Source: a virus
DNA: 64,000 nt
IMG/VR virus record: IMGVR_UViG_3300024239_000017
Reading direction: 5' to 3' (one strand)
In this document: positions 5,248 through 60,687 of the stretch, piece after piece
How the letters are laid out: the number at the start of each line of letters is the position of its first letter
Numbering within the stretch: the stretch's first letter is position 1
The notes under the pieces: model-generated
The model's database searches: none
Told to the model about the DNA's origin: nothing
What the model saw: only the letters and a program-made list of their open reading frames with translations
Program-made: the position numbers and the translations under genes

Positions 5248-5320
5248 ACCGATATAGTTCAATTGGTAGAACAACTCCCTCATCAGGAGAAGGTTGTAGG
5301 CTCGAATCCTGCTATCGGTA
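5248..5320 (+). tRNA. tRNA-Met/Ile2(CAT), atypical
   Basis: ACCGATA/TATCGGT, CTCC-CTCATCA-GGAG; C37 and a CTCGAAT T loop. Confidence 0.7.
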
Positions 5321-5469
5321 CAAAGTAAACAAGTATAAAAGGTATAGAGCGTAATGGCTTGCCGAGAAATATCCAGTAAGAGTAACCGATATACAGAGTT
5401 CTCCGAGGGCAGTCTAGAACAGTAAGGGCTGTACGGTTAATACCACTGTTGACCTCTGTTTACTATCTT

Positions 5470-25388: not shown

Positions 25389-25459
25389 GGTGCCATAGCT
25401 CAGTAGGTAGAGCTGTGACGACGGTCATGAAAGCATAGGTTCGAACCCTATTGGCACCA
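25389..25459 (+). ncRNA. tRNA-like element with a 4-nt loop instead of an anticodon
   Basis: GGTGCCA/TGGCACC-A, canonical D and T arms, TGTGAC-GACG-GTCATG. Confidence 0.75.
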
Positions 25460-25463
25460 CAGA

Positions 25464-25735
25464 TTGACTTGTTGACTTAGTAAGCAACTTTGCAGGACGA
25501 GGGTTCGAATCCCTCCATCTCCACTACGTTATCACATGAGTGATTGTCAGTTAAATTCCCTAGAAGTTCATCAGAGCATGGTCTGATAAAAATGGGGATG
25601 ACTGGTTTCGACTGTAAACAGAGGTACTAACGAGAGTTAATTCATAAGTAAACGGAAACGTTGTAAAAATGAACTTCGCTACTGCTAGAGCAGTGGCATA
25701 GTTCCGTTCGGGGAGAACGACATCTCCCCATTTTT
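25464..25735 (+). ncRNA. ssrA: Permuted (two-piece) tmRNA; tag (A)GNVVKMNFATARAVA
   Basis: Acceptor piece GGACGAGGGTTCGAATCCCTCCATCTCCA ends at 25523, before the coding piece GGGGATGACTGGTTTCGAC starting at 25594; G3:U70; tag ORF 25654-25701; terminator hairpin follows. Confidence 0.85.
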
Positions 25736-27228: not shown

Positions 27229-27299
27229 GACCTGTTCGTCTAGTGGTTAGGACAATGCGCTGCGGTGTGTAAACAGAGGTTCGAATCCTCTACAGGTTA
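27229..27299 (+). ncRNA. tRNA-Glu-like body with a degenerate anticodon arm (6-nt loop)
   Basis: Same acceptor and T stems as 16126; ATGCG-CTGCGG-TGTGT. Confidence 0.75.
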
Positions 27300-27326
27300 C
27301 AATTAATTAACTAAATTTATTATATT

Positions 27327-45236: not shown

Positions 45237-45842
45237 ATGATATTAAGTAAAAAATATGATTTAGAAAATCTACTAGATGTAAACTTTCCTTTCAAAATAT
45301 CTGATATAAATAAAGATGATGGTTTATTTTATTTTAAAATAAATGACGTTCAAATGTGTATCAGAAATTATGAAGTATATAATAATTTTGGATATTATTT
45401 AAAAAGATATTTTGACCTTCACTCAGGAAATATTTCTGAGAGTTTTAATTTAAATGAAGTTAATAGAAACATATATTTTAACGGAGACATGACAATATAT
45501 GAAACTTTAACTGATGTAAATATTACAATAGAAGAAAAATACTTATATGAAAGATTTCAAAGTTATAGTCCTAAATGTTTTTGGGGTACAATTATATCAC
45601 CAAATTATGTTAATATAGGACAAAGAAAAATAATAAAAGCAGAATACTCTCCACACTCAAAAGATAAAATGACAACTAAAGTTCTAGTGCAACCTGAAGG
45701 AGTGAATTACGAAGAATCGTATTTTGTATATATTGATAAAAAATTCAGACCTTCACATGAAACTAAGATATTACATAAATTTGTAAATGACAAGGGTATT
45801 TTACACTATAAAAAAAGTTTCTTTAACAATTGGGTTTATTAA
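45237..45842 (+). CDS. Hypothetical protein
   Basis: 201-aa ORF. Confidence 0.65.
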   Translation: MILSKKYDLENLLDVNFPFKISDINKDDGLFYFKINDVQMCIRNYEVYNNFGYYLKRYFDLHSGNISESFNLNEVNRNIYFNGDMTIYETLTDVNITIEEKYLYERFQSYSPKCFWGTIISPNYVNIGQRKIIKAEYSPHSKDKMTTKVLVQPEGVNYEESYFVYIDKKFRPSHETKILHKFVNDKGILHYKKSFFNNWVY

Positions 45843-45843
45843 A

Positions 45844-46428
45844 ATGAAGTACAATATTATATACGCAGATCCACCTTGGCAATATGGAAGTAAATCTGCC
45901 GTGAACAATAGTAACGGTAGTGAGATTAAAAAATTATCAGAACACTATAATAGTATGACCATAGATGATATTAAATCTATAGATATAAAAAGTATTACTG
46001 AGGATGACGCTTGTTGCTTTATGTGGGTAACAGATTCACATTTAAAAGAAGGTATAGAAGTTATGGAGTATTGGGGATTCAAATATAAAACAGTAGCTTT
46101 TGTATGGGTAAAAACTACAAACAAAGGTAATTACTGTAAGAATGTTGCACCTTGGACTTTAAAGAGCACAGAGCTTTGTTTATTTGGTACCAAAGGAACC
46201 ATGACAAAATATAAAAAGAATAATTCTATAGAATCTTTAGTTTTTGCAGAAAGATTTAAACATTCTCAGAAACCAGAAGAAGTTAGAAGTAGAATAGAGA
46301 GTTTATTTGGTGATTTACCAAAATTAGAGCTTTTTGCTAGAAGTGGTAGAGATGGATGGACTACGGTAGGCAACGCTATAGATGGAATGGATATTAATGA
46401 AAGTTTAGAATTATTAAAACATGAGTAA
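45844..46428 (+). CDS. MT-A70 family N6-adenine methyltransferase
   Basis: IIYADPPW, WGFKYKT.AFVWVK, HSQKP, KLELFAR. Confidence 0.9.
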   Translation: MKYNIIYADPPWQYGSKSAVNNSNGSEIKKLSEHYNSMTIDDIKSIDIKSITEDDACCFMWVTDSHLKEGIEVMEYWGFKYKTVAFVWVKTTNKGNYCKNVAPWTLKSTELCLFGTKGTMTKYKKNNSIESLVFAERFKHSQKPEEVRSRIESLFGDLPKLELFARSGRDGWTTVGNAIDGMDINESLELLKHE

Positions 46429-46966
46429 ACATTTTTTTAAAATAGACAAAGGAAATCTTATAACAAAGGCATTAGACGGTGAATTTGATGTAATAGCACA
46501 TGGTTGTAATTGTTTTTGTACCCAAAAATCTGGAATAGCTGTAGAAATGGTTAAGAATTTCAAAACAGATACTTTTCCAATGGAGACTCGTGGTAGAGGA
46601 GACATTAATAAACTAGGTCAGATTGATTTTATAAATTTTTATAAAGGAAAAAAAGATTCATTATTTCAAGATGAAGATTGGTATTTTTCATTTGATAGAA
46701 AGGAAGTACCTGATTTAGTAGTAGTAAATGCTTATACACAATATAAATATGGTAATAATCATAGTGATGGTGAAGCTGTACCATTAGATTATAGAGCATT
46801 AGCTTTATGTTTCAAGAAAATAAATCACACTTTTAAAGGTAAGCATATTGGTTTACCTTTAATTGGTGGTGGTTTGGCAGGAGGGGATATGGACATTATT
46901 ATAAAAATAATGAGACAAGAATTTAAAAACTGTGACGTTACATTAGTATTATACGATAAAAATTAA
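46421..46966 (+). CDS. Macrodomain protein (ADP-ribose binding or hydrolase)
   Basis: GNLI, IAHGCNC....SGIA, NAYTQ, PLIGGGLAGG. Confidence 0.85.
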   Translation: MSKHFFKIDKGNLITKALDGEFDVIAHGCNCFCTQKSGIAVEMVKNFKTDTFPMETRGRGDINKLGQIDFINFYKGKKDSLFQDEDWYFSFDRKEVPDLVVVNAYTQYKYGNNHSDGEAVPLDYRALALCFKKINHTFKGKHIGLPLIGGGLAGGDMDIIIKIMRQEFKNCDVTLVLYDKN

Positions 46967-46970
46967 AATT

Positions 46971-48833
46971 ATGGGATTCAGAATTAATTCACTTTATTTA
47001 AGTGATGGATATAAAGTTGGGCATAAAAGCATGTTAGCCCCAGGAACAACAAGATTATATGGTACATGGATACCTAGAAGTTTAAAACATGCCCCTAAAG
47101 GTATTAATAAAATAGTTACATTTTATTATCAAGCGGTTTGGAAAAGATTGAATGACGAATTTAATGAAAACTTTTTCTTTACAGCAGAAAGAAACCTTGC
47201 AATACTTGATGGAGATCAAGATAAATTTGAAGAATTGAAAGTTAATGCAATGGTTTTTGCAAAAGATATGTCCGATTATCTTGGTATGGACTATGACGGA
47301 AATCATTTTGGACAATTATGGGATATAGGTTATTTACCTATAAGAGTTAAAGCATTACCTGAAGGTATAGAAACTCTTCCTAACATTCCTCATATGACTT
47401 TTATCAACACTGTTAAAGGTTTTGGATGGCTTACTCTTTACTTAGAAACTATTGTAAGTAATCAAGCTTGGAAAGGTAGTACTTCTGCTACTATTGCTAA
47501 ATTATATCGTAGACAAGCAGAAGAATGGGTTAATAAAACAGATAAAGCTAATATTGGATTAGTAGATTGGATGTGCCATGATTTCTCTTCTAGAGGATTG
47601 TCTGGCGTAGATGATATGATTACTGTTGGATTGGGACACGCTACTTCTTTTAGAGGTTCTGATACATTAGTAACTATACCTGCTGCAAGATATTATTATA
47701 ATGAAACAGAAGTTTGTATTGGTTCTGTAAATGCATCTGAACACTCTGTATCTACAACTAAAATTTTCACTGTTGGTGAAAAGCAAATGATTATTGACTG
47801 GTTGAAAGAAATTCCAAATGGTATTTTTTCAATGGTTTGTGATACATTTAGTACTTGGCAATTTATTGAATATTTAAAGGATCCTGAGATTAAAGAACTA
47901 GTACTTAATCGTAATGGTAAATTAGTAGTAAGACCTGATTCAGGAGACCCCGCAGATATTATTTGTGGTAAAAAACCTAAGAAAAGAAAATATTTTGCAG
48001 AATATTCTGAAAACGATATAGAAGAATGGTTAGAAATTTCATCAGATGAAATGATAACTAATATATTAAATGATAAAGAATATATCTATGAATTAGATGA
48101 TTTCTTACCATCAATGAGTGGTGGAAGAGATTATACTCCTGATTTTAAAGATGGGCAAACATGTTATATAAAAATAGGTAATAGAGTAATCGCATTTGAA
48201 GTATATACAGGAGAATGTGTAGAAGCTACTTGGGCTCATACTATTAATGAAACAGATATAAAAAATCTGAGAGAAGTAGACCCAATAGAAAAAAATTCAC
48301 CCGAAGCAAAAGGAGTTGTAGAACTTCTTTGGGATATTTTTGGAGGAACAGTTAATGAACAAGGTTATAAAGTATTAGATCCTCATATCGGTGCCATTTA
48401 CGGTGATAGTATTACACCTGAAAGACAAGTAGATATTTATAAAAGACTATCTGAAAAAGGATTTGCATCAACAAATATAGTTTTAGGTATAGGTTCATTT
48501 ACATATGAATATATGACTAGAGATACTTTAGGTTTTGCTGCAAAAGGAGCATGGTTTGAAGTAGAAGGAGAAGGTAAGTGCAATTGTGGTCATACAATAG
48601 ACTGTGACTGTGTAAAACAATATGATATTTATAAAGACCCTATTACAGACGACGGTACTAAAAAATCATTAAAAGGATTTTTACAAGTATACAAAGATGA
48701 ACAAGGAGAATATAGAGTCAAAGAACAATGTACTGTTGAAGAAGAAAATACAGGAGAATTACAATTGATATTTGAAAATGGTAAATTCTTTAATCAAACA
48801 AGTTTAACAGAAATTAGAAATAGATTAAAATAA
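46971..48833 (+). CDS. Nicotinamide phosphoribosyltransferase-like protein (Namat/NadV)
   Basis: SDGYKVGH, HDFSSRG, ASEHSV, VRPDSGDP, IYGDSIT, KDPITDDGTKKS. Confidence 0.92.
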   Translation: MGFRINSLYLSDGYKVGHKSMLAPGTTRLYGTWIPRSLKHAPKGINKIVTFYYQAVWKRLNDEFNENFFFTAERNLAILDGDQDKFEELKVNAMVFAKDMSDYLGMDYDGNHFGQLWDIGYLPIRVKALPEGIETLPNIPHMTFINTVKGFGWLTLYLETIVSNQAWKGSTSATIAKLYRRQAEEWVNKTDKANIGLVDWMCHDFSSRGLSGVDDMITVGLGHATSFRGSDTLVTIPAARYYYNETEVCIGSVNASEHSVSTTKIFTVGEKQMIIDWLKEIPNGIFSMVCDTFSTWQFIEYLKDPEIKELVLNRNGKLVVRPDSGDPADIICGKKPKKRKYFAEYSENDIEEWLEISSDEMITNILNDKEYIYELDDFLPSMSGGRDYTPDFKDGQTCYIKIGNRVIAFEVYTGECVEATWAHTINETDIKNLREVDPIEKNSPEAKGVVELLWDIFGGTVNEQGYKVLDPHIGAIYGDSITPERQVDIYKRLSEKGFASTNIVLGIGSFTYEYMTRDTLGFAAKGAWFEVEGEGKCNCGHTIDCDCVKQYDIYKDPITDDGTKKSLKGFLQVYKDEQGEYRVKEQCTVEEENTGELQLIFENGKFFNQTSLTEIRNRLK

Positions 48834-48834
48834 A

Positions 48835-49779
48835 ATGAAACTTCCTTGGAATAAAGATAATAGTGTGAAATCAGTAAATATACCAGAAGGTGATAAATCT
48901 TTTGGTGATCTTATAATGGATAATTCAATCGAAATAAGGATTATAAATGAATTTTATTACAAAGTCTTAAGTTATCCAGATGGTAGTAAATATGTCAAAG
49001 TTTATAACATTTATAACGATTTAACTTTTAAAATTAATTCTTATGAAGATTTATGGATTTTAAATCAGATACATGACGTGGTTAAAAGTAAAGGTAGGTA
49101 TGTTACTGTAACAATACCTAATTTAATTGACGCTCAAGCAGATAGAAGATTCAATTCAGATGAATCTAGTGGATTAAAATTAGTTTGTAACTTTTTAAAT
49201 GGTCTTTCTAATTTCAATTATAAGATATTTCATCCACATAATCAAGAAGTAGTTGAAGCTTTATTAGATAGAGTTGAAATCATTGATAATTCCGAATTTA
49301 TAAATCAAGTAATATCTATTAAATTGAATGCAAGAATAGATAACTCGGTAAAAGATAATTTAATTTTAATGAGTTCTGATGCAGGAGGATTCAAACCCTT
49401 AATGAAATTAGCTGATAAACTTGCTTGGAGAGGTGAAACTTTCTCAGCGTCTAAATCTAGAAAATATGAAGAGGGTAAATCAAAATTACTTCAACAAATT
49501 GATAGACAGGACTTTAATGGAAAAGATATTCTCATAATAGATGATATATGTGTTTATGGGGGAACATTTAAAGGTCTTGCTAAAATGTTAAGAGAAAGAA
49601 ATTGTGGTAAATTATATTTAGCTGTAAGTCATATGACAGTTGAAAATTTAGGTGAAGATCCTGTAACTGATTACTTTGATATGGTTTATACTACTAATAG
49701 TAAATTTGAATTTTATGATAAACCAGAAAAATATCATGGAGACAGATTAGATAATTTAGAAATAATTAAATTGTTTTAA
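48835..49779 (+). CDS. Ribose-phosphate pyrophosphokinase-like protein (Adps-like)
   Basis: AQADRRF, FHPHN, SDAGG, LIIDDICVYGGTF. Confidence 0.88.
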   Translation: MKLPWNKDNSVKSVNIPEGDKSFGDLIMDNSIEIRIINEFYYKVLSYPDGSKYVKVYNIYNDLTFKINSYEDLWILNQIHDVVKSKGRYVTVTIPNLIDAQADRRFNSDESSGLKLVCNFLNGLSNFNYKIFHPHNQEVVEALLDRVEIIDNSEFINQVISIKLNARIDNSVKDNLILMSSDAGGFKPLMKLADKLAWRGETFSASKSRKYEEGKSKLLQQIDRQDFNGKDILIIDDICVYGGTFKGLAKMLRERNCGKLYLAVSHMTVENLGEDPVTDYFDMVYTTNSKFEFYDKPEKYHGDRLDNLEIIKLF

Positions 49780-50783: not shown

Positions 50784-50822
50784 TTATTAAATTTAATTTT
50801 CAAAAATGGGGTCGCATCCAAA

Positions 50823-51276
50823 ATGAAACAAATAAAAGCAATACCAAAATTAGTTTTCGATAAACACTTTACTAATAAGGAGTTTGAATATTATGATTAC
50901 TCTTGTTTTATTTCAATACTTGATATTGATAATAATGAGCAAAAGTTTGATAAATCAATAGACAATTTTCTACAAGTAAAAATATGGGATATTGAAGAAG
51001 ATCTGTTTGAAAATGGTGAGTTAAAATATGAAAAACCAAATGATAAAGAACTAAAAAAAAATAGTTGATTTTATAAATAAACATAAGGATAAATCAGTAT
51101 TTATAGTTCATTGTTCTGCTGGGATTTCTCGAAGCGGTGCGGTTGCAATTTTTTTGTATGATAAATTTTTGTCAGAAATAGACAAAGAACAATTCAGAAG
51201 AGAAAATAAATACATAAGACCAAACCTTTATATTTTAAACAGATTGAAGTATTTAGATATTGTCGTTTTAGAATGA
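50823..51276 (+). pseudogene. Protein-tyrosine-phosphatase-like gene (CX5R) split by a +1 frameshift in an A9 run; cassette 1
   Basis: Second frame 51061-51276 reads IVDFINKHKDKSVFIVHCSAGISRSGAVA... Confidence 0.8.
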
Positions 51277-51277
51277 C

Positions 51278-51372
51278 GACTAACGGTTCGGGTATATATT
51301 CAGTACCCTTGCACCGAACTTAAAAATTTAATATAAACTTTAATAGGGTATTGTATATATACTTTGTTAGCA
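51278..51372 (+). repeat. attC-like site 1
   Basis: GACTAAC..GTATATATTCAGTACCCT..AGGGTATTGTATATATAC..GTTAGCA. Confidence 0.78.
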
Positions 51373-51385
51373 AACGTTAATTATT

Positions 51386-51634
51386 ATGGATGAAGTTAAA
51401 ATGTTTTTATTTGCAAGGTGGATTGCTACTTGCTATGCTGATACACATTTAGATAGTAAAATGAAATGTAAGCACGATGAAGGATTTAAAGAGTCAGAAG
51501 CAATCTCAGTTTTAAATAGAGAAACAGGATATTGGTATAAGGAACAATTAAAACATTTTAACGATGTCGTGTATCCGAACTACATTGAAAACGGAACAGT
51601 TGAAAATACGAAACAGTTCTTTAATGTTTGCTAA
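51386..51634 (+). CDS. Cassette 2 hypothetical protein
   Basis: Stop codon is the TAA of the next TAAC box. Confidence 0.7.
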   Translation: MDEVKMFLFARWIATCYADTHLDSKMKCKHDEGFKESEAISVLNRETGYWYKEQLKHFNDVVYPNYIENGTVENTKQFFNVC

Positions 51635-51759
51635 CGATTTGGTGTTTCTGAAGAACGGGCTACGGAAACTGAACTGACTAAATATAACTGAAATAACAAC
51701 TAAAATCGCAATAACAATAGATGTTTTTAAACCCGTTTTTTAGAAACATATTGTTAGCA
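51629..51759 (+). repeat. attC-like site 2
   Basis: TGCTAAC..TGTTTCTGAAGAACGGG..CCCGTTTTTTAGAAACA..GTTAGCA. Confidence 0.78.
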
Positions 51760-51776
51760 GCAGTAACACTAATTAT

Positions 51777-52064
51777 ATGGCACTTGATTTAGAAGAAATG
51801 AAAAAAAATATAGACGAGTTTTTAGCAAATATAACACAAGAGGAAATTAACAAATATTTTCCTCCTGATACTCGTCCAAAAGGTTGGTTAAGTATTGAAG
51901 AATATTTACCAATGATGTGTGCAATTGACATTGTACAGGGATATACACTTTATAAAGTGAAAGACAAGAATGGTAACGAATTTGAAAGTGCTGTATCAGA
52001 CCATAATAATTGGTATTACTACGCAAAAGAAGAAGGTATTACTCACTGGTGGAATGGAGAGTAG
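51777..52064 (+). CDS. Cassette 3 hypothetical protein (DUF551-like ends)
   Basis: WLSIEEYLP...ITHW. Confidence 0.7.
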   Translation: MALDLEEMKKNIDEFLANITQEEINKYFPPDTRPKGWLSIEEYLPMMCAIDIVQGYTLYKVKDKNGNEFESAVSDHNNWYYYAKEEGITHWWNGE

Positions 52065-52071
52065 TTATTGC

Positions 52072-52203
52072 TGCTAACGTTTTGCGTGTATAAGAAGTGG
52101 CGTAGAACGTGCCGAAGCATTACAAAAATTAAATAATTATAAATTAATAAATAACCAATCCAAAACTGCCGATAGTAGCCATTTTTTATACACGCTGTTA
52201 TCT
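52072..52203 (+). repeat. attC-like site 3
   Basis: TGCTAAC..GCGTGTATAAGAAGTGGC..GCCATTTTTTATACACGC..GTTATCT. Confidence 0.78.
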
Positions 52204-52233
52204 TTCAGTTGCGGGTTTTAAAAACAGAATATT

Positions 52234-52467
52234 ATGAACATTCAAGACGAATTACAGAAAATCCACCATCAGTATGGAACAAGCGAAAAAGCTAATTATG
52301 AAATACAAAAACTATTTGACAAACAAATTAGAGAAAGTGATTTTTTAGCGTGTCATTTTACTAAACATATTTTAAATATGCCAAATAATAAATTAGAGAG
52401 TAAAACAGTAAAAGAACATTACTCAGAGTTTAAAAAACGTTATTTAGAAGAAAATAGTAGCAATTGA
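52234..52467 (+). CDS. Cassette 4 hypothetical protein
   Basis: ORF filling the cassette. Confidence 0.65.
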   Translation: MNIQDELQKIHHQYGTSEKANYEIQKLFDKQIRESDFLACHFTKHILNMPNNKLESKTVKEHYSEFKKRYLEENSSN

Positions 52468-52597
52468 AGATAACGTTCGAGCATTGGCGAAGTGCAGACT
52501 AAGGATGCCGAACCTGAAAGGTTCAAGTCCGTGGCAAACGAAGGCAAATGCGACTATTAATAACTCAACTCTGCATTTTGCCAATGCTGTGTTATAC
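52468..52597 (+). repeat. attC-like site 4
   Basis: AGATAAC..AGCATTGGCGAAGTGCAGA..TCTGCATTTTGCCAATGCT..GTTATAC. Confidence 0.78.
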
Positions 52598-52667
52598 GAA
52601 GAAGTTTTTTAGCAAAGGCAATACGGCTGGAACAGACGTAAATATTAACAAAGAAATTATATAAATA

Positions 52668-52925
52668 ATGAAAACAATTACAGGATTTATTTTCGGATTA
52701 GTAATGGCAATTTTAATTTCAGCCACTACCATCAATACCAGTTTAATTACAACAAAACCAAATACTCCAAAATCTGTTTTAGTGAAAGGATTTGGATATA
52801 ATGAAGAAGAAGAAATTCAGCAATACGTTTCAGCTTGTACCAAAGACGGTTATGTTGTAAAATCGCTTAATGGTGGTGGTGGAAGTGGAGGAAGTTGGTG
52901 GTTTTTAGTGATGGAAAAATATTAA
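52668..52925 (+). CDS. Cassette 5 hypothetical protein with N-terminal TM segment
   Basis: Paralog of 39571-39792. Confidence 0.7.
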   Translation: MKTITGFIFGLVMAILISATTINTSLITTKPNTPKSVLVKGFGYNEEEEIQQYVSACTKDGYVVKSLNGGGGSGGSWWFLVMEKY

Positions 52926-53011
52926 AACACAACATTATAAAAAAAAGCGATGGCAAAAAACTTTTTTGTATAACACAAAAATAGACGCAATAAAAGTATT
53001 ACAAAAACACG

Positions 53012-53197
53012 ATGAAGCCTTTGTACACAGAAGTTTTTACGCTCAAAATTTCAAAGCAACAAAAACAGACTTTAGAGAAGTTGAAATCAAGAAATATAAA
53101 GGTTTCATCTTTTGTAAGAAAAGCAATTGCGGAGAAAATAGAGCGTGATTATGAAAATCTAAAAGAAAAACCTAAAAAAGAATATTGTCCTTTTTAA
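53012..53197 (+). CDS. Ribbon-helix-helix-like DNA-binding protein
   Basis: FTLKIS...LEKL....VSSFVRKAIAEKI. Confidence 0.6.
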   Translation: MKPLYTEVFTLKISKQQKQTLEKLKSRNIKVSSFVRKAIAEKIERDYENLKEKPKKEYCPF

Positions 53198-53235
53198 TTT
53201 AAAACTTCCCACTAGTAAGTAAGTGGAACTATATA

Positions 53236-53529
53236 ATGAACAAAAAAGAATTTTATAATGACAATGATAAAGCATTTTTTGATGCTGGATTTGAAAGAAC
53301 AGTTGATGATGAACTATTTCTATACTTTAAACAATTAATTTCTGAAGATGAAATTGAAAATCATGATTTAGAAGAGGAAGAAGTTCCAACACTTTTATTT
53401 GGAACCAATGGAATAAATAGTGGTTTTGCTATATATACAGGAACACATTTCATTTGGATTGATTCTGAAACACCTAAAGATGCAAGTGATTTTGCTGATA
53501 AAATATTATCATTTGACACAATATTTTGA
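53236..53529 (+). CDS. Hypothetical acidic protein
   Basis: ORF. Confidence 0.6.
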   Translation: MNKKEFYNDNDKAFFDAGFERTVDDELFLYFKQLISEDEIENHDLEEEEVPTLLFGTNGINSGFAIYTGTHFIWIDSETPKDASDFADKILSFDTIF

Positions 53530-53531
53530 AT

Positions 53532-54302
53532 ATGAAAAGATTTAAGTTATATAAAGTTGGGGGATGTGTAAGAGATTCTATATTAGGAGAATCTCCAAAA
53601 GACATTGATTTTGTTTTTGAATTTACACAGGATTTTCTAGATAGTGTTATAGGAAATGCCTCTGCAAACGTTTTATATATTACAATGAATAAAATGTTAG
53701 AACTAGAAGGTTTTACTATATTACAGGATTTACCAGATTATTTTACAACTAAAGCAAGATTTCCTAAAGGACATAAATATGAAAATTTAGTTGCAGATTT
53801 TGTAATGTGTAGAAAAGAAATTTATACAGATTCATATAGTAGAAGACCTATTGTTTCTCCTGGTACCATATATGACGATTTAGAGAGAAGAGATTTTAGA
53901 ATGAATGCTATTGCAGAAGATGAAGAAGGTAATATTATAGACCCTTTTAACGGTGTAGAAGATATTAAAAATAGGATAATAAGTTGTCCTAAAAATGCAA
54001 AACATTCTTTTTCAGAAGACCATCTTAGAATGCTAAGAGCAATAAGATTTTGTATAACTAAAGATTTTACTCTCGATGACGAGGTATGGGAAGCTTTATG
54101 TAATAAGAACTTTTGGACTAATTTACAATATCATGTTTCTATAGAAAGGATAAAAGACGAGTTATACAAGTGTTTTAAACATGATACTATTAGAACTATG
54201 AGATTGCTAATAGATATTGAATTTTTTGCAGAAATACTTATTTTAGAAAATATTTTCCCTGAAAAATTATGGTTAGAACCAACATTAAAAAGTAGAAAAT
54301 AA
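53532..54302 (+). CDS. cca: tRNA nucleotidyltransferase (class II CCA-adding enzyme)
   Basis: VGGCVRD..LG..PKDID, DLERRDF.MNAIA, ED.LRMLRAIRF, SIERI..E. Confidence 0.9.
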   Translation: MKRFKLYKVGGCVRDSILGESPKDIDFVFEFTQDFLDSVIGNASANVLYITMNKMLELEGFTILQDLPDYFTTKARFPKGHKYENLVADFVMCRKEIYTDSYSRRPIVSPGTIYDDLERRDFRMNAIAEDEEGNIIDPFNGVEDIKNRIISCPKNAKHSFSEDHLRMLRAIRFCITKDFTLDDEVWEALCNKNFWTNLQYHVSIERIKDELYKCFKHDTIRTMRLLIDIEFFAEILILENIFPEKLWLEPTLKSRK

Positions 54303-54901
54303 TGAACAATTTTTACAAATTAAAAAGTTATGTAGATAATCTTGAAGTAGATGATTTTCTATATATAGAAATTATGATTCGCAATAAAGATCAAAAAGAT
54401 AATATTGGTAAAAATAATAGAATTATAAAATCTTACAAAGTAGATATTTTAACAGATTTGAATAGATTAGAAGAAGATATTAAAAAGTTATGTAAAACTT
54501 TTAATGCTAGAGCATACATATATTTATCTCCTAGAAATAATGAAAAAGTATTTTCAGAAATGTTATTGTTAATGGCTAATTATAATAAGATGAAAAATTA
54601 TGATTCAATAAATAGAGTTTTTGATAAAGCATTAAAAAGTATAAAAGGTTCAATGAAACATTTTATAATTGATATAGACACTAAAGATCTACATTATATA
54701 ACAAATGTTAGAGAAGAAATAATAAATAGCGCTAAGTTAGATTCTATAGAAGCACCACTAATAGATATTTTTGAAACAAACAGTGGTTATCATATAATAA
54801 CTAAACCTTTTAATTATTACAAAACTTTTAAAGATAAATTTCCAGATATAGAAATACATAAAAATAATCCTACTTTACTTTATTATGATGGTAAAGTATA
54901 A
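54302..54901 (+). CDS. AEP (primase-polymerase)-like protein
   Basis: FIIDID and ETNSGYHII motifs. Confidence 0.45.
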   Translation: MNNFYKLKSYVDNLEVDDFLYIEIMIRNKDQKDNIGKNNRIIKSYKVDILTDLNRLEEDIKKLCKTFNARAYIYLSPRNNEKVFSEMLLLMANYNKMKNYDSINRVFDKALKSIKGSMKHFIIDIDTKDLHYITNVREEIINSAKLDSIEAPLIDIFETNSGYHIITKPFNYYKTFKDKFPDIEIHKNNPTLLYYDGKV

Positions 54902-54911
54902 AAAATAAATT

Positions 54912-56270
54912 ATGATAACAGGAAAAGATTTAATAGCATTAGGATATATTCCTAATAAGCTATTTGGGGACGCAATAAAATATATAAATACATATGAATT
55001 ATCTACAGAAGAAATCAAATCTTTTCTAGATGAATTCTTTAAACCAACTCCTACTTTGGAGCCTTTTAAAACTCCTGTAGATTATATTCTTAATATTGAA
55101 GTAGAAAATCAAGACGAAGTAAACAACCTTAGTGCCATACACAATACTATGCAAGTCTTAATGAAGACTCCTACAGTGTTAACAGGTGTAATAATGCCTG
55201 ACGCTTGTCCTACAGGAGAGCCTGGTCAGATACCTGTAGGTGGTGTTGTAGTAACAGAAAATGCTATACACCCATCTATGCACTCAGCAGATGTATGTTG
55301 TTCAGTTATGACTTCTGATTTAGGTAAAATTGATCCTAAAGAAGTATTAGATATAGCATTTGCAACCACACATTTTGGTGCAGGCGGTAGAAAAGAACAT
55401 GGTGGTTGGGGAGATTTACTATATGATAATAATTACTTAGTAGAAAAAATACTAGGTAATTACTATACAAAAGATTATATAGAAAAAGCAGCAAAACATT
55501 TAGGAACTCAAGGTGATGGAAATCACTTTTTATTCGTAGGTATTTCTGAAAAAACAGGTAATACTCATATAGTAACACATCATGGTTCTAGAGGATTTGG
55601 TGCGGCAGTATATAAAAAAGGAATGGACACAGCAGAAAAGTATAGAAAAGAGCTTTCTCCAAATACTTTAAAGAAAAATGCTTGGATTCCTTATGATAGT
55701 GTAGAAGGTAAATTATATTGGGAAGCTCTTCAAATAGTAAGAGAATGGACTAAACTTAATCATGAATCACTTCATAATAGAATTATAAATAAATTAAAAA
55801 TTCAATATGAAAATAGATTTTGGAACGAGCATAATTTTGTTTTCAAAGACGGTAATAAATTCTATCACGCTAAAGGTGCTACACCATTAGAAGATAAATT
55901 TGTACCTGATTCACAAAATGGATTAAGATTAATACCTTTGAATATGTCACAACCTGTTTTGGTTGTAAAAGGTGAAGCTACAGATACAAATTTAGGATTT
56001 GCACCTCATGGTGCTGGTAGAAATGTATCAAGAGCAGAACATCATAGAAGACACGCTAACAAAACTGACGAACAAGTTTTTAAAGAAGAAACAAAAGGAC
56101 TTGATGTTAGATTTTATACAGGTAAAATAGATATATCTGAGTTACCTAGTGCATATAAAAATGCAGAAAGTGTACAAAGACAAATAGAAAAATTTGGACT
56201 AGGTACTGTTGTGGATAGAATAATGCCTTATGGTTGTATAATGGCAGGAAAACAAGAAAAATTTTATTAA
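54912..56270 (+). CDS. rtcB: RtcB RNA ligase
   Basis: MPDAC, DVCC, GNHF, HHGSRG, HNF, HGAGR, ELPSAYK. Confidence 0.92.
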   Translation: MITGKDLIALGYIPNKLFGDAIKYINTYELSTEEIKSFLDEFFKPTPTLEPFKTPVDYILNIEVENQDEVNNLSAIHNTMQVLMKTPTVLTGVIMPDACPTGEPGQIPVGGVVVTENAIHPSMHSADVCCSVMTSDLGKIDPKEVLDIAFATTHFGAGGRKEHGGWGDLLYDNNYLVEKILGNYYTKDYIEKAAKHLGTQGDGNHFLFVGISEKTGNTHIVTHHGSRGFGAAVYKKGMDTAEKYRKELSPNTLKKNAWIPYDSVEGKLYWEALQIVREWTKLNHESLHNRIINKLKIQYENRFWNEHNFVFKDGNKFYHAKGATPLEDKFVPDSQNGLRLIPLNMSQPVLVVKGEATDTNLGFAPHGAGRNVSRAEHHRRHANKTDEQVFKEETKGLDVRFYTGKIDISELPSAYKNAESVQRQIEKFGLGTVVDRIMPYGCIMAGKQEKFY

Positions 56271-57243: not shown

Positions 57244-60200
57244 TCAATAAAACTTTTTGCTTAAACTGTTTAAAGCATTTCTTATTTCTCCACCTCTCTG
57301 TGCATAATTTGTATTATTGTTAGAATTATTTTTAGCAATATTATTCATCATCCATATTATGTTCTGTTTGAATTTTTCCTCACCTTTACGAGTATCCTCG
57401 TCATTATCCTTCATATAATCAGGTTGATTATAACTATCACTTCCTTTAGTGGCATTTATAAATTCGTATACATCAGGATACATTTCTCTTAATAATGAAT
57501 TACCACCACCTTGCTTATTTAACTCTTTAAATTTATTAAGATGTTCTTCTGTAAAATCTTCTTTGGAAGCATCATAAATTCCTTGATTTTTAAGTTCTTG
57601 TCTAAAACTTTGCATTCTAGCTAAATACTCTGTAGGATTAGAAGTATAATCAGTTACTATAGGTCTATCATAATCTGTACCATTAACTTTGAATCTAATA
57701 TTATTGAATTTTTTAGATATAAAAGAATCACTAAATGGTTCATAGTTATCAGGATTATCAAATTCTTGCCCCGCTCTAGTAAAAGCATCATCTTCTTTTA
57801 AATACTTTTCAGTATCTGTACTTATAGGTAACATTCTATCTATAAATTCACGTTCTTTTTTGAAGTATGGATCCAATAAGTTTTTTGCCAATCCTTCACT
57901 ATTCATTCCGTCAGGTCTATTACCCCTAGTTCTATTGATAATATCTATCAATGTTTTTGTAGGCATGTCTACTGTACCGTCAGTAATAGCATGTGATATT
58001 TCATGGGTAAAAACACTAGGATTAAGTTTCGAACCCTCTTTTGTAACTTCTATATTACCTGCTTTTGTTGGATGTATTCTATAATTATATTTTTCATCAT
58101 TTCTATAATCATTTTCTCTTGCATAAGTTACACCTAAAGTACCCTTTTCATTATTGATATTATCTACTATACTGATATTTTTTGAAGCATTTTGAAAATT
58201 ATTCTTTCTATTCTCATATAATCTATTAATAGTTTCTTCATCAGCATTAGGATATTCTTTTTTAAGCCTTTCTAAATACTTCGGTGAATTAATGTATTCT
58301 TTAAACCAAGCTACCTGTTGATCTTTATTCATTGGCTTCTTACCTCCTAATTGTGCATACCACATATTGTTTTCTGTTTTTCTATTATCTACTATATTAT
58401 TCAATAACCAAACAGCATCGTCTTGAGAGTTTAATATATTGAGTAATTCTCCTGAATTAGCTTCTATTAAAGGTTTATTGTTATTTTCTCCTGGTTTTTT
58501 ATAATTATTTAAAAACTTAGTTAAATGTTCTTTAGTTATAGGAGATTTATAAGGATCTACAATACCACTATCTTTAAGTTCTTTTCTTAGAACATTCAAT
58601 CTGGCATGTACTTCTGTAGGATTACTTAGGTAACTTCCTGAATCATCTCTAACCCTAGATAAAATATCCTCTACATCATTTCTGAGTAATAATTGATTTG
58701 CTCCTGTAGATTGATGAGTACCTTCATGTAATATAACATTTTCTGGAGCCATTCTTCTAGTTACAATATTGCCATATTTACTATTTGGACTAGTATAAGA
58801 AGTTCCTTGAAGGTCTTTGTTATTAAATCTTTCTCCCCTTTTTCTTGTATATGAATTTGTCGATTTTAATAAATCTTCTGCTGTAGATATTTCCAAATTC
58901 TGTCCACTAATTCTATCTAATCTAGTAGAAAGATTATCTACACCACTTTGCCCTTCTCTTTTAAAGGCTATTTTATTAGCCATAGGAGATTCTAACCATC
59001 CTTTCAAATAACCTATTTCGTCTGTCTTTAACATGGTTTGGGGTTTCAATACCCCATTAGTGTCAGAATATTCCCATTTTGATTCTGTAATCCCTCCTTT
59101 CTGAAATTTTGTAAGTAATTCATTTAAAGAATTTCTAACATTTCCTCCTAATTTTTTTCTAGTAACAGTAATTTCAGGGTATTTAATACCTCTATCGTCT
59201 ATAGAAGCCTTAGGTAATTTCTTAACACTTTTAGAATTTATACCATCTATTAATGAGTTTATCTCTTTTAATATAAGCTTCTCATCTAAATTAGCTAAAT
59301 CTGGAAATCCTGCACTATTTAAATACTTATACCCGTGATAATTAACGTCTATCATGTCATTTGTAATACCCCTGTCCACTAATTTAAGTGTCATAGGATA
59401 ACTATCGCTAGATAGAGAATTCGCTGGTAAAAAAACTTTTCCTTTTTCTGATGAATTTACTTTATCGTATGCTTTTTTAAGCTTAGCCATTGGATTTAAA
59501 TTCTCTCTTTTATACAAAGTTGGCATTAATTCTTCATCGTATTCTAAAGGCTTTCTTTCTATGAAAGGTGAAACTTTTTTATTAATATTTGATAATAAGC
59601 TATTACTATTAGTTTCAGTAGTAGGAACTCTTAAATTTCTAAATATAGGAGTTATATGTTCGACTAAATCGTCTTCGGAATATAAAGGTATTCTTGTATC
59701 ACTAATTATTTCTTCTACATTTTGTTTACTTATAGGTTGTTCTTTTAATGCTTTAAGTCTACTATTTAAACTATTTTTATCAAAACCTGTAAGTAATATG
59801 AATTGGTCATCATTTAAATGAGAAGAATTTTTAAATACGTCTTCTATTAACTTTGCATCACTATATAATTCACCTGAATTAACAATACTTCCTACATTTC
59901 TAACTGTAGATAATAATTTCTTTTCTCCATGTGAAAGACTCTCAGGTTTATTCAAAAATTTAAACTCTAAAGATTTTACTAAATTATTTAATTCTTCTTT
60001 AGTACCTACTTTATTTTTAAATAGTTTTGCTAAATCGTCAGATACTCCTGCGGCTGGAACTACTCCTAATAAATTTACAGCACCGCTTATCGTGTGCTTT
60101 CCAGCACCTTTAAAATTCCCTTCTATTAACTTTTCAGGGATTGTAACTACGTCTTTTGCTCCCTCTATTCCAGAATCAATCCATGATAATGGGTTAGCTA

Positions 60201-60636
60201 TACTTGTAGCTATGTCTAAATTATTAGTTTTTCCTTTACTAAAATTATCAGGTATTCTTTGATTGTTTACTACATACTCTAAAGCTGTAGCGGGATTGGT
60301 AGCTATTTCCCATCCTTTTGAAAGTAATGATTGTTCTTCTTGAGACTTTTCAATACTTCCTGTAGATTTTTGATTATTCAACCTAGCTATATTATCCTCA
60401 AATTCTTGTTTTTGTATAAGCTCTACAGCTTTTTTTCTTGAAACATTGAATCTATTACTTACCTCTTCTATTTTCTTTGAATCTGCTTTAATTTTATTAA
60501 TAGGATTTATATTTTTAGCTTTGGTAAAGTTTATTACTTTATTCGTATCAGATACGGTATTATCATCTAATAATCTTTTCATTCCACCTCTCTGATATTT
60601 TTCAACTAATTTATTTATGTCTTCTCTTAAATTCAT
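57244..60636 (-). CDS. Large putative virion/cargo protein with two tandem zincin (HExxH) domains and repeated xxxGG linkers
   Basis: HEGTH and HEISH domains, each followed by SNPTE..AR and W..NNI...YAQ.GG; start at ATG 60636. Confidence 0.75.
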   Translation of the reverse strand: MNLREDINKLVEKYQRGGMKRLLDDNTVSDTNKVINFTKAKNINPINKIKADSKKIEEVSNRFNVSRKKAVELIQKQEFEDNIARLNNQKSTGSIEKSQEEQSLLSKGWEIATNPATALEYVVNNQRIPDNFSKGKTNNLDIATSIANPLSWIDSGIEGAKDVVTIPEKLIEGNFKGAGKHTISGAVNLLGVVPAAGVSDDLAKLFKNKVGTKEELNNLVKSLEFKFLNKPESLSHGEKKLLSTVRNVGSIVNSGELYSDAKLIEDVFKNSSHLNDDQFILLTGFDKNSLNSRLKALKEQPISKQNVEEIISDTRIPLYSEDDLVEHITPIFRNLRVPTTETNSNSLLSNINKKVSPFIERKPLEYDEELMPTLYKRENLNPMAKLKKAYDKVNSSEKGKVFLPANSLSSDSYPMTLKLVDRGITNDMIDVNYHGYKYLNSAGFPDLANLDEKLILKEINSLIDGINSKSVKKLPKASIDDRGIKYPEITVTRKKLGGNVRNSLNELLTKFQKGGITESKWEYSDTNGVLKPQTMLKTDEIGYLKGWLESPMANKIAFKREGQSGVDNLSTRLDRISGQNLEISTAEDLLKSTNSYTRKRGERFNNKDLQGTSYTSPNSKYGNIVTRRMAPENVILHEGTHQSTGANQLLLRNDVEDILSRVRDDSGSYLSNPTEVHARLNVLRKELKDSGIVDPYKSPITKEHLTKFLNNYKKPGENNNKPLIEANSGELLNILNSQDDAVWLLNNIVDNRKTENNMWYAQLGGKKPMNKDQQVAWFKEYINSPKYLERLKKEYPNADEETINRLYENRKNNFQNASKNISIVDNINNEKGTLGVTYARENDYRNDEKYNYRIHPTKAGNIEVTKEGSKLNPSVFTHEISHAITDGTVDMPTKTLIDIINRTRGNRPDGMNSEGLAKNLLDPYFKKEREFIDRMLPISTDTEKYLKEDDAFTRAGQEFDNPDNYEPFSDSFISKKFNNIRFKVNGTDYDRPIVTDYTSNPTEYLARMQSFRQELKNQGIYDASKEDFTEEHLNKFKELNKQGGGNSLLREMYPDVYEFINATKGSDSYNQPDYMKDNDEDTRKGEEKFKQNIIWMMNNIAKNNSNNNTNYAQRGGEIRNALNSLSKKFY

Positions 60637-60655
60637 TATTTTACTAATTATACTA

Positions 60656-60687
60656 CAAATATAAAACAAAAAAAAGATTAATCCAAA
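60656..60687 (-). promoter_or_regulatory. Bacteroidota-type promoter (- strand)
   Basis: Reverse complement reads TTTG-N20-TATATTTG. Confidence 0.7.

What the first reader, a model, noticed from the sequence alone, without database searches (positions are those of the whole stretch)
50810..52974. Integron-like gene-cassette array carried inside a lytic phage genome
Seen: five single-ORF units separated by four 95-132 bp sites of the form xxxTAAC - 17-19 bp arm - variable loop - complementary arm - GTTAxxx (51278, 51629, 52072, 52468). The sites share architecture but not sequence. Each cassette's left end is also complementary to its own right end over 15-19 nt: GTTAGCAAACGTTAA/TTAATGTTTGCTAAC, GTTAGCAGCAGTAAC/GTTATTGCTGCTAAC, GTTATCTTTCAGTTGC/GCAATTGAAGATAAC and GTTATACGAAGAAGTTTTT/AAAAACTTTTTTGTATAAC. 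This is what is expected if each unit once existed as an excised circle. Known: integron attC sites have R'' RYYYAAC and R' GTTRRRY boxes and recombine as folded ssDNA; arrays lacking intI are called CALINs. Inference: a phage-borne system that captures and shuffles accessory genes, using a host or phage recombinase in trans. No tyrosine recombinase is encoded in this window.
Basis: partly seen in the sequence, partly recalled or inferred. Interest (0 to 1): 0.92.

Follow-up and report, generated by a model that had tools for sequence, protein, structure and literature searches.

The report
Integron-like gene cassette array in phage
This phage carries a row of small swappable genes joined by folded-DNA sites; sister phages have swapped the whole row at the same four-base points, so it is a working variant of the bacterial integron that uses a different enzyme, which this phage stretch does not encode.

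Summary
Observation confirmed: four TAAC-arm-loop-arm-GTTA sites (51281, 51632, 52075, 52471), the only ones in 64 kb; each gene's flanks pair with each other. The array turns over. A sister phage, 95-99% identical on both sides, has three wholly different units, one a Tad1-like anti-defence gene, between TAAC 51281 and TAAC 52971. Four of the five genes recur in unrelated arrays with boundaries at the cores. Corrections: the mobile unit is hairpin plus downstream gene, cut at TAAC, not G|TTA. The array ends in an attI-like half-site (52971) and a ribbon-helix-helix-like gene. In 61 of 62 viral loci of a 265-aa Xer-like recombinase that lacks the IntI insertion, such sites lie directly upstream. 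One phage holds our first cassette, that recombinase and our RHH gene, so this locus looks recombinase-deleted. Flavobacterium chromosomes carry the same system with genes facing the classical way, a plausible enzyme source in trans. Phage CALINs are published (PMC9892861); the one site of this family tested there was not recombined by IntI1. I found no paper describing the system. This scan has noted it in at least 36 other genomes. Catalysis, circles and lytic lifestyle are untested.

The parts
50820..51280 (+). Eroded oldest cassette: dual-specificity phosphatase gene (50823-51276), frameshifted in an A9 run at 51053-51061; upstream hairpin and left end lost; right end retained
   Evidence: Complete cassette with hairpin and paired ends in L104 and L105 at 91%; intact 150-aa A8 allele in sister phage L243, DSPc E 5e-8; A7 in L112
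51281..51369 (+). Hairpin site 1 (attC-like), belongs to the downstream gene
   Evidence: travels with the 82-aa gene in 6 of 6 other contexts
51281..51635 (+). Cassette A: hairpin 1 + 82-aa ORF 51386-51634, unknown function
   Evidence: Unit found at 95-99% in L237-L242, homology starting and ending at or within about 20 nt of the two TAAC cores
51632..51756 (+). Hairpin site 2
51632..52078 (+). Cassette B: hairpin 2 + 95-aa ORF 51777-52064 (weak DUF551, E 0.03)
   Evidence: Core 51750-52079 at 86% in L009 (10-site array) and L010, there with another upstream hairpin
52075..52200 (+). Hairpin site 3
   Evidence: 78% identical to a site in cultured Flavobacterium Muminvirus phages; 91% with its right flank in recombinase-linked array L204
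52075..52474 (+). Cassette C: hairpin 3 + 77-aa ORF 52234-52467, unknown function
   Evidence: Paired ends; identical protein found only in this same array
52471..52594 (+). Hairpin site 4
   Evidence: retained with cassette D in L122 and L124
52471..52974 (+). Cassette D (newest position): hairpin 4 + 85-aa ORF 52668-52925, unknown function
   Evidence: Identical protein in 116 index blocks; core 52590-52974 at 97-99% in 8 other contexts
52971..52991 (+). Terminal half-site without hairpin; attI-like primary insertion site
   Evidence: Homology to sister phages L112, L119, L120 starts exactly at 52971, each with a different last cassette; lone half-sites end some 30 other arrays
53012..53197 (+). 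61-aa ribbon-helix-helix-like regulator (DUF6290 E 2e-5, RelB-like E 2e-5, both below cut-off); follows the recombinase in intact loci
   Evidence: 84% identical gene directly behind the recombinase in L237; homologue ends the Muminvirus arrays
53207..53228 (.). Short palindrome closing the RHH module; role unknown
   Evidence: Conserved in L005-L007; terminator-like on the minus strand

Best explanation
A working, recombinase-less gene-cassette array of a Bacteroidota integron variant. Each cassette is hairpin + GTTA + 11-nt end + gene + complementary 11-nt end + TAAC. The coding strand folds at each site; a dedicated Xer-like tyrosine recombinase exchanges strands within TAAC, excising a cassette as a circle. 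In the circle the two 11-nt ends extend the hairpin stem, and the circle is reinserted mainly at the terminal half-site (52971), so older cassettes are pushed away and decay. Rarer exchanges on the GTTA side reassort hairpins among genes. The enzyme gene normally lies between the terminal site and the RHH gene; it is missing here and is supplied in trans by the host's chromosomal system or a co-infecting phage, or from elsewhere in this genome. The payoff is fast sampling of a shared pool of early accessory genes, including anti-defence genes. Shown: anatomy, unit definition, breakpoints, turnover, enzyme linkage. Inferred: single-strand folding, circles, catalysis, directionality, source of the enzyme.
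For: Sister phage L112 matches the window to 51285 and again from 52971, with three different units between; L119 and L120 have other last cassettes at 52971. Indels of 506 and 439 nt between cultured phages are exactly hairpin + downstream gene, cut at TAAC. Across 257 junctions the hairpin was shared in 0 of 19 pairs with the same upstream end and in 23 of 53 with the same downstream end. In 130 cassettes the ends pair at 7.8 of 11 against 3.9 for controls, with a G.T wobble at position 7 in 112 and a sharp stop after position 11; the coding strand folds better in 178 of 225 sites. Sites lie upstream of the recombinase in 61 of 62 viral loci and downstream in 0 of 77; the half-site is mostly 56-83 nt before the gene. 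L237 holds cassette A, half-site, recombinase and RHH. 55 of 101 Flavobacterium genomes have a close recombinase relative; 7 of 12 sampled have sites beside it.
Against: The rest of this genome could not be searched. The host is inferred. Junction pairs are not phylogenetically independent. My detector requires the TAAC/GTTA cores and orients by them, so core conservation is partly by construction. Hairpins differ in 30 of 53 pairs that share a downstream end, so the unit is not strictly fixed.
Confidence: 0.8

Rival explanations
1. The exchange is site-specific, but in recombinase-less phages such as this one it is catalysed by housekeeping host XerC/D acting on the folded strand, as for CTXphi, not by the dedicated enzyme.
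For: The linked enzyme is Xer-like; three complete array- or RHH-module-bearing phage records have no PF00589 gene; XerCD recombining folded ssDNA is known (own knowledge).
Against: 61 of 62 linkage to a dedicated recombinase; about half of sampled Flavobacterium genomes carry a cognate relative; the sites vary in sequence, unlike dif mimics.
Confidence: 0.08
2. The array is a frozen relic; the allelic arrays in sister phages arose by homologous or illegitimate swaps of whole blocks, using the conserved RHH module and phosphatase end as anchors.
For: No enzyme at the locus; the identical four-cassette array recurs in several samples; the distal cassette is decaying; a whole-block swap could explain L112.
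Against: Divergence from L112 begins one base after TAAC on the left and ends at TAAC on the right; four different last cassettes at 52971 in near-identical modules, and L243 differs right after cassette A. Flank-anchored recombination would only move arrays built by site-specific events.
Confidence: 0.1
3. The hairpins are RNA elements (processing, stability or termination), like mobile regulatory modules of T4-type phages, and shuffling is a by-product.
For: The coding strand folds better; the sites lie in a co-oriented gene run.
Against: In chromosomes the same sites face against the ORFs (15 of 17); pairing across a whole gene makes sense only in a circle; recombinase linkage; no Rfam match and no terminator called at the sites.
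Confidence: 0.02

Closest known systems
Classical integrons (IntI, attI, attC cassettes), incl. sedentary chromosomal integrons
   Same: Single-gene cassettes, sequence-variable palindromic sites with AAC/GTT cores, ends that pair in the circle, one primary site next to a tyrosine recombinase, decay at the distal end; crossover geometry equals the attC bottom strand if the coding strand is taken as that strand.
   Different: Recombinase lacks about 48 aa against IntI4 and scores below the TIGR02249 cut-off; cassette ends pair over 15 nt, not 7; a 3-4 nt one-sided bulge and G.T wobbles instead of single extrahelical bases; phage ORFs face the primary site (136 of 139); the chromosomal enzyme points toward its array.
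CALINs in virulent phages (Qi et al. 2023, PMC9892861), esp. Polaribacter phage P12002L
   Same: Integrase-less attC-like arrays in lytic phages. P12002L_attC1 belongs to this site family and precedes a methyltransferase gene.
   Different: That paper treats them as ordinary attC. P12002L_attC1 was the one site of six not recombined by IntI1, and its attC2 is, in my reading, the array's terminal half-site read on the other strand. No cognate enzyme, primary site or turnover was described in the parts I read.
Reverse integrons (integrase co-oriented with cassettes; own knowledge)
   Same: The chromosomal Flavobacterium form has the recombinase pointing into an array of co-oriented ORFs.
   Different: Those enzymes are IntI with the insertion; this family lacks it.
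CTXphi-type IMEX using XerCD on folded ssDNA (own knowledge)
   Same: Xer-type enzyme without the IntI insertion acting on a folded single strand.
   Different: One fixed dif-mimic site integrating a whole genome, not an array of variable cassettes with its own enzyme.

Membership tests
Classical integron | intI gene beside the array | tested here: not met
   No recombinase hit in the window; rest of genome not held
Classical integron | Integrase carries the IntI-specific insertion | tested here: not met
   Linked enzyme residues 177-208 span IntI4 181-260; TIGR02249 140-185 bits against cut-off 265
Classical integron | Primary insertion site (attI) next to the integrase | tested here: met
   Functional analogue only: half-site at 52971 with different last cassettes; 56-83 nt before the recombinase in most viral loci
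Classical integron | Palindromic sites with inverted AAC/GTT cores; cassette ends complementary | tested here: met
Classical integron | attC lies downstream of its gene, crossover at G|TT on the coding strand | tested here: not met
   Hairpin travels with the downstream gene, breakpoints at TAAC; chromosomal members have the classical orientation
Classical integron | Extrahelical bases in the folded strand | tested here: inconclusive
   Predicted circle folds show a 3-4 nt bulge and wobbles, no consistent single extrahelical base; prediction only
Classical integron | Cassette promoter Pc at attI | tested here: inconclusive
   A Bacteroidota-type promoter match at 52976-53005 points into the array antisense to the ORFs; about 5 expected by chance; not matched in L005
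CALIN | Two or more attC-like sites without a nearby integrase | tested here: met
   Four sites, no recombinase in 64 kb
CALIN | Sites recognised by the attC covariance model (IntegronFinder) | not testable with these tools
   Model not available; a family member was found by HattCI in PMC9892861
CALIN | Sites recombined by IntI | not testable with these tools
   Published negative result for the family member P12002L_attC1

The most novel reading that the evidence does not exclude
A widespread, undescribed Bacteroidota cassette system, shared by hosts and phages, in which a Xer-like recombinase without the IntI insertion recombines folded single strands. Phages that have lost the enzyme borrow the host's to sample a common pool of cassettes, including anti-defence genes, with genes inverted to suit phage transcription; the arrays record host-phage conflict in order of acquisition.
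Probability: 0.6. Interest if true: 0.85.

Novelty: new variant of a known kind. Interest (0 to 1): 0.7.

Why it matters
Integrons are defined by IntI and were reported as nearly absent from Bacteroidetes (PMC9024848). A parallel system with a different enzyme, present in many Flavobacterium genomes and their phages, would be missed by current tools. It tests whether the IntI insertion is needed for hairpin recombination. It gives phages a programmed way to swap counter-defence genes: a Tad1-like gene sits at this locus in a sister phage, and in cultured Muminvirus phages the cassettes include DNA methyltransferases, a gene class linked to plating efficiency (PMC7077304). Those cultured phages and hosts make it directly testable.

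Tried and rejected
Rfam: nothing at the sites. Pfam, NCBIfam, PHROGs and Atlas gave no function for cassettes A, C, D. A first generic AAC..GTT scan was too noisy. The sigma-70 promoter scan was at chance level. The idea that the bases at 50808-50819 are a remnant left end of the phosphatase cassette was rejected: homology to intact copies starts at 50820. Assembly error as cause of the frameshift was rejected: same A9 in L109 and L110. Searching for relatives with the CCA-adding enzyme gave only distant phages without arrays. A strict site pattern hit only 4 of 151 Flavobacterium genomes; it is too narrow, since 7 of 12 recombinase loci had sites by the structural scan. Ten literature searches found phage CALINs but no description of this system; the library lacks most subscription papers.

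Full report
1. Observation. The four sites are present at 51281-51369, 51632-51756, 52075-52200 and 52471-52594. They are the only ones in the window; shuffles give 0-1 at the same score. The 11 nt after each GTTA pair with the 11 nt before the next TAAC (10, 10, 6 with a bulge, and 9 of 11) and with no other end (1-5). No Rfam family fits. The window is a large phage genome segment: 28 tRNA calls, a permuted tmRNA, DNA polymerase, thymidylate synthase. No whole genome is held, so lifestyle and the rest of the gene set are untested. A Bacteroidota host is inferred from where the sites and cassettes recur.

2. The units are mobile, and in this lineage. L112 (ENA, 112.7 kb) is 95-99% identical on both sides. 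It matches the window to 51285, one base past the first TAAC, and resumes at 52971, the last TAAC. Between them lie three different hairpin-gene units with their own paired ends. One encodes a Tad1/Acb2-type protein (PF24729 above cut-off; E 3.5e-13 to solved Tad1). L119 and L120 have the same downstream module at 99.6% with other last cassettes, again from 52971. L243 shares the window to the end of cassette A and then differs. Cassette A recurs with its upstream hairpin in six contexts at 95-99%, cassette D in eight, the core of cassette B in two, and the phosphatase as a complete cassette in two. Cassette C was found only in this array.

3. Polarity. Cultured Flavobacterium phages (Muminvirus and kin) carry arrays of 4-11 such sites in variable order. 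Two strain pairs differ by 506 and 439 nt, each exactly hairpin plus downstream gene, cut at TAAC. Over 257 junctions, pairs sharing the upstream end never shared the hairpin (0 of 19); pairs sharing the downstream end did in 23 of 53 (Fisher p 3e-4, but pairs are not independent). The 30 pairs with a different hairpin, including three hairpins in front of cassette D with the switch at GTTA, imply rarer events on the GTTA side (inference).

4. Site anatomy. In 130 cassettes the two ends pair at 7.8 of 11 positions (controls 3.9), although their sequence varies; position 7 is a G.T pair on the coding strand in 112; pairing stops after position 11. The coding strand folds better in 178 of 225 sites. 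Modelled circles of the four window cassettes give one long stem with a 3-4 nt bulge after the core. This matches a folded-strand substrate on the coding strand, cut at its 5' TAAC, which is the geometry of the attC bottom strand (own knowledge). Phage ORFs lie on that strand in 136 of 139 cases, so they are inverted relative to classical cassettes.

5. Primary site and enzyme. Arrays end in a lone TAAC half-site; the seven Muminvirus-type arrays examined place varied last cassettes at one fixed site in front of an RHH-like gene related to 53012-53197. A 265-aa tyrosine recombinase follows such a half-site in L068 and L013. Among 80 viral loci of this enzyme, 61 of 62 with enough DNA have sites upstream on the same strand, none of 77 downstream, and the half-site is mostly 56-83 nt before the gene. 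It lacks about 48 aa against IntI4 and falls below the integron-integrase cut-off. L237 carries cassette A, a half-site, a 272-aa member and an RHH gene 84% identical to ours. The window therefore looks like that module minus the recombinase. The cassette farthest from the half-site, the phosphatase, has lost its hairpin and is frameshifted (A9; intact A8 in L243; A7 in L112), as expected if new cassettes enter at 52971.

6. Source of the enzyme. One Flavobacterium chromosome has at least 27 sites over 82 kb beside a 582-aa relative. 55 of 101 genomes of the genus have a close relative; of 12 sampled, 7 have sites beside it and 3 more show a half-site before the contig ends; ORFs there face the classical way in 15 of 17. 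Cassette A also sits, inverted, among bacterial-type genes in L238, which suggests traffic between host and phage pools. Three complete phage records with an array or the RHH module have no PF00589 gene. Supply in trans is thus plausible, not shown.

7. Known systems. Phage CALINs, including in lytic phages, are published (PMC9892861). Its Polaribacter site attC1 is of this family and was the only one of six that IntI1 did not recombine. IntegronFinder 2.0 reports almost no complete integrons in Bacteroidetes (PMC9024848). The Muminvirus paper links methyltransferase content to plating efficiency and shows no passage on these sites (PMC7077304). Ten searches found no description of the enzyme, half-site or inverted cassettes. 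Earlier notes of this scan report the same system in at least 36 genomes; I used them as leads, one of which pointed to the Polaribacter paper, and retested the claims here.

8. Verdict. It works like an integron, is not a classical one (IntI features tested and not met), and meets only the structural CALIN definition. New variant of a known kind; interest 0.7. The strength here is nucleotide-exact turnover within one phage lineage. Missing: catalysis, circles, host and the full genome.

Noticed in passing
window 25389-25637 and 27229-27300: Permuted tmRNA match (RF04321, 56 bits over cut-off 47) beside tRNA-like pieces with no readable anticodon, in a phage with 28 tRNA calls.
   Followed up: no
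window 51053-51061: A-run in the phosphatase has 9 (window), 8 (intact, L243) or 7 (L112) bases in sister phages: slippage, either decay or phase variation.
   Followed up: partly
L112:4178-4492: Tad1/Acb2-type anti-defence gene as a cassette at this locus in a sister phage.
   Followed up: partly
L238:1-3219: Cassette A inverted among a toxin-antitoxin-like pair, an SMR transporter and a LinB-like nucleotidyltransferase; resistance-type genes may be cassettes of the chromosomal form.
   Followed up: partly
L002 vs L103 (mumin6-1 vs mumin6-3): Three bases right after GTTA differ, and only the mumin6-3 version pairs with the cassette's far end: possible copy-correction of one end from the other.
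   Followed up: no
L122-L129: The 4-6 nt bulge after TAACG varies between copies of otherwise near-identical hairpins.
   Followed up: no
L006:3774, 5312-5375, 6199: A 319-kb phage has several copies of the terminal half-site and closing palindrome, one with the RHH gene missing, and no hairpin array nearby.
   Followed up: no
L257, L258, L259: The 'integrases' of cultured phages Freya, Leef and Ingeline are 33-38% identical to the cassette recombinase and have a lone TAAC about 50-60 nt upstream; Leef and Ingeline have a site further upstream. They may be cassette enzymes, not lysogeny integrases.
   Followed up: partly
window 3280, 4499, 5686, 44365: Repeated Bacteroidota-type promoter motif, near-identical in these copies; 13 matches against 5.3 expected.
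   Followed up: no
window 45787-49779 and 53526-56270: Array flanked by an MT-A70 methyltransferase, NAD salvage genes, a CCA-adding/poly(A) polymerase-like gene and RtcB: a nucleotide and RNA repair neighbourhood.
   Followed up: no
window 57244-60669 (-): 1141-aa protein with a partial match to a tail-protein family (phrog_24249).
   Followed up: no
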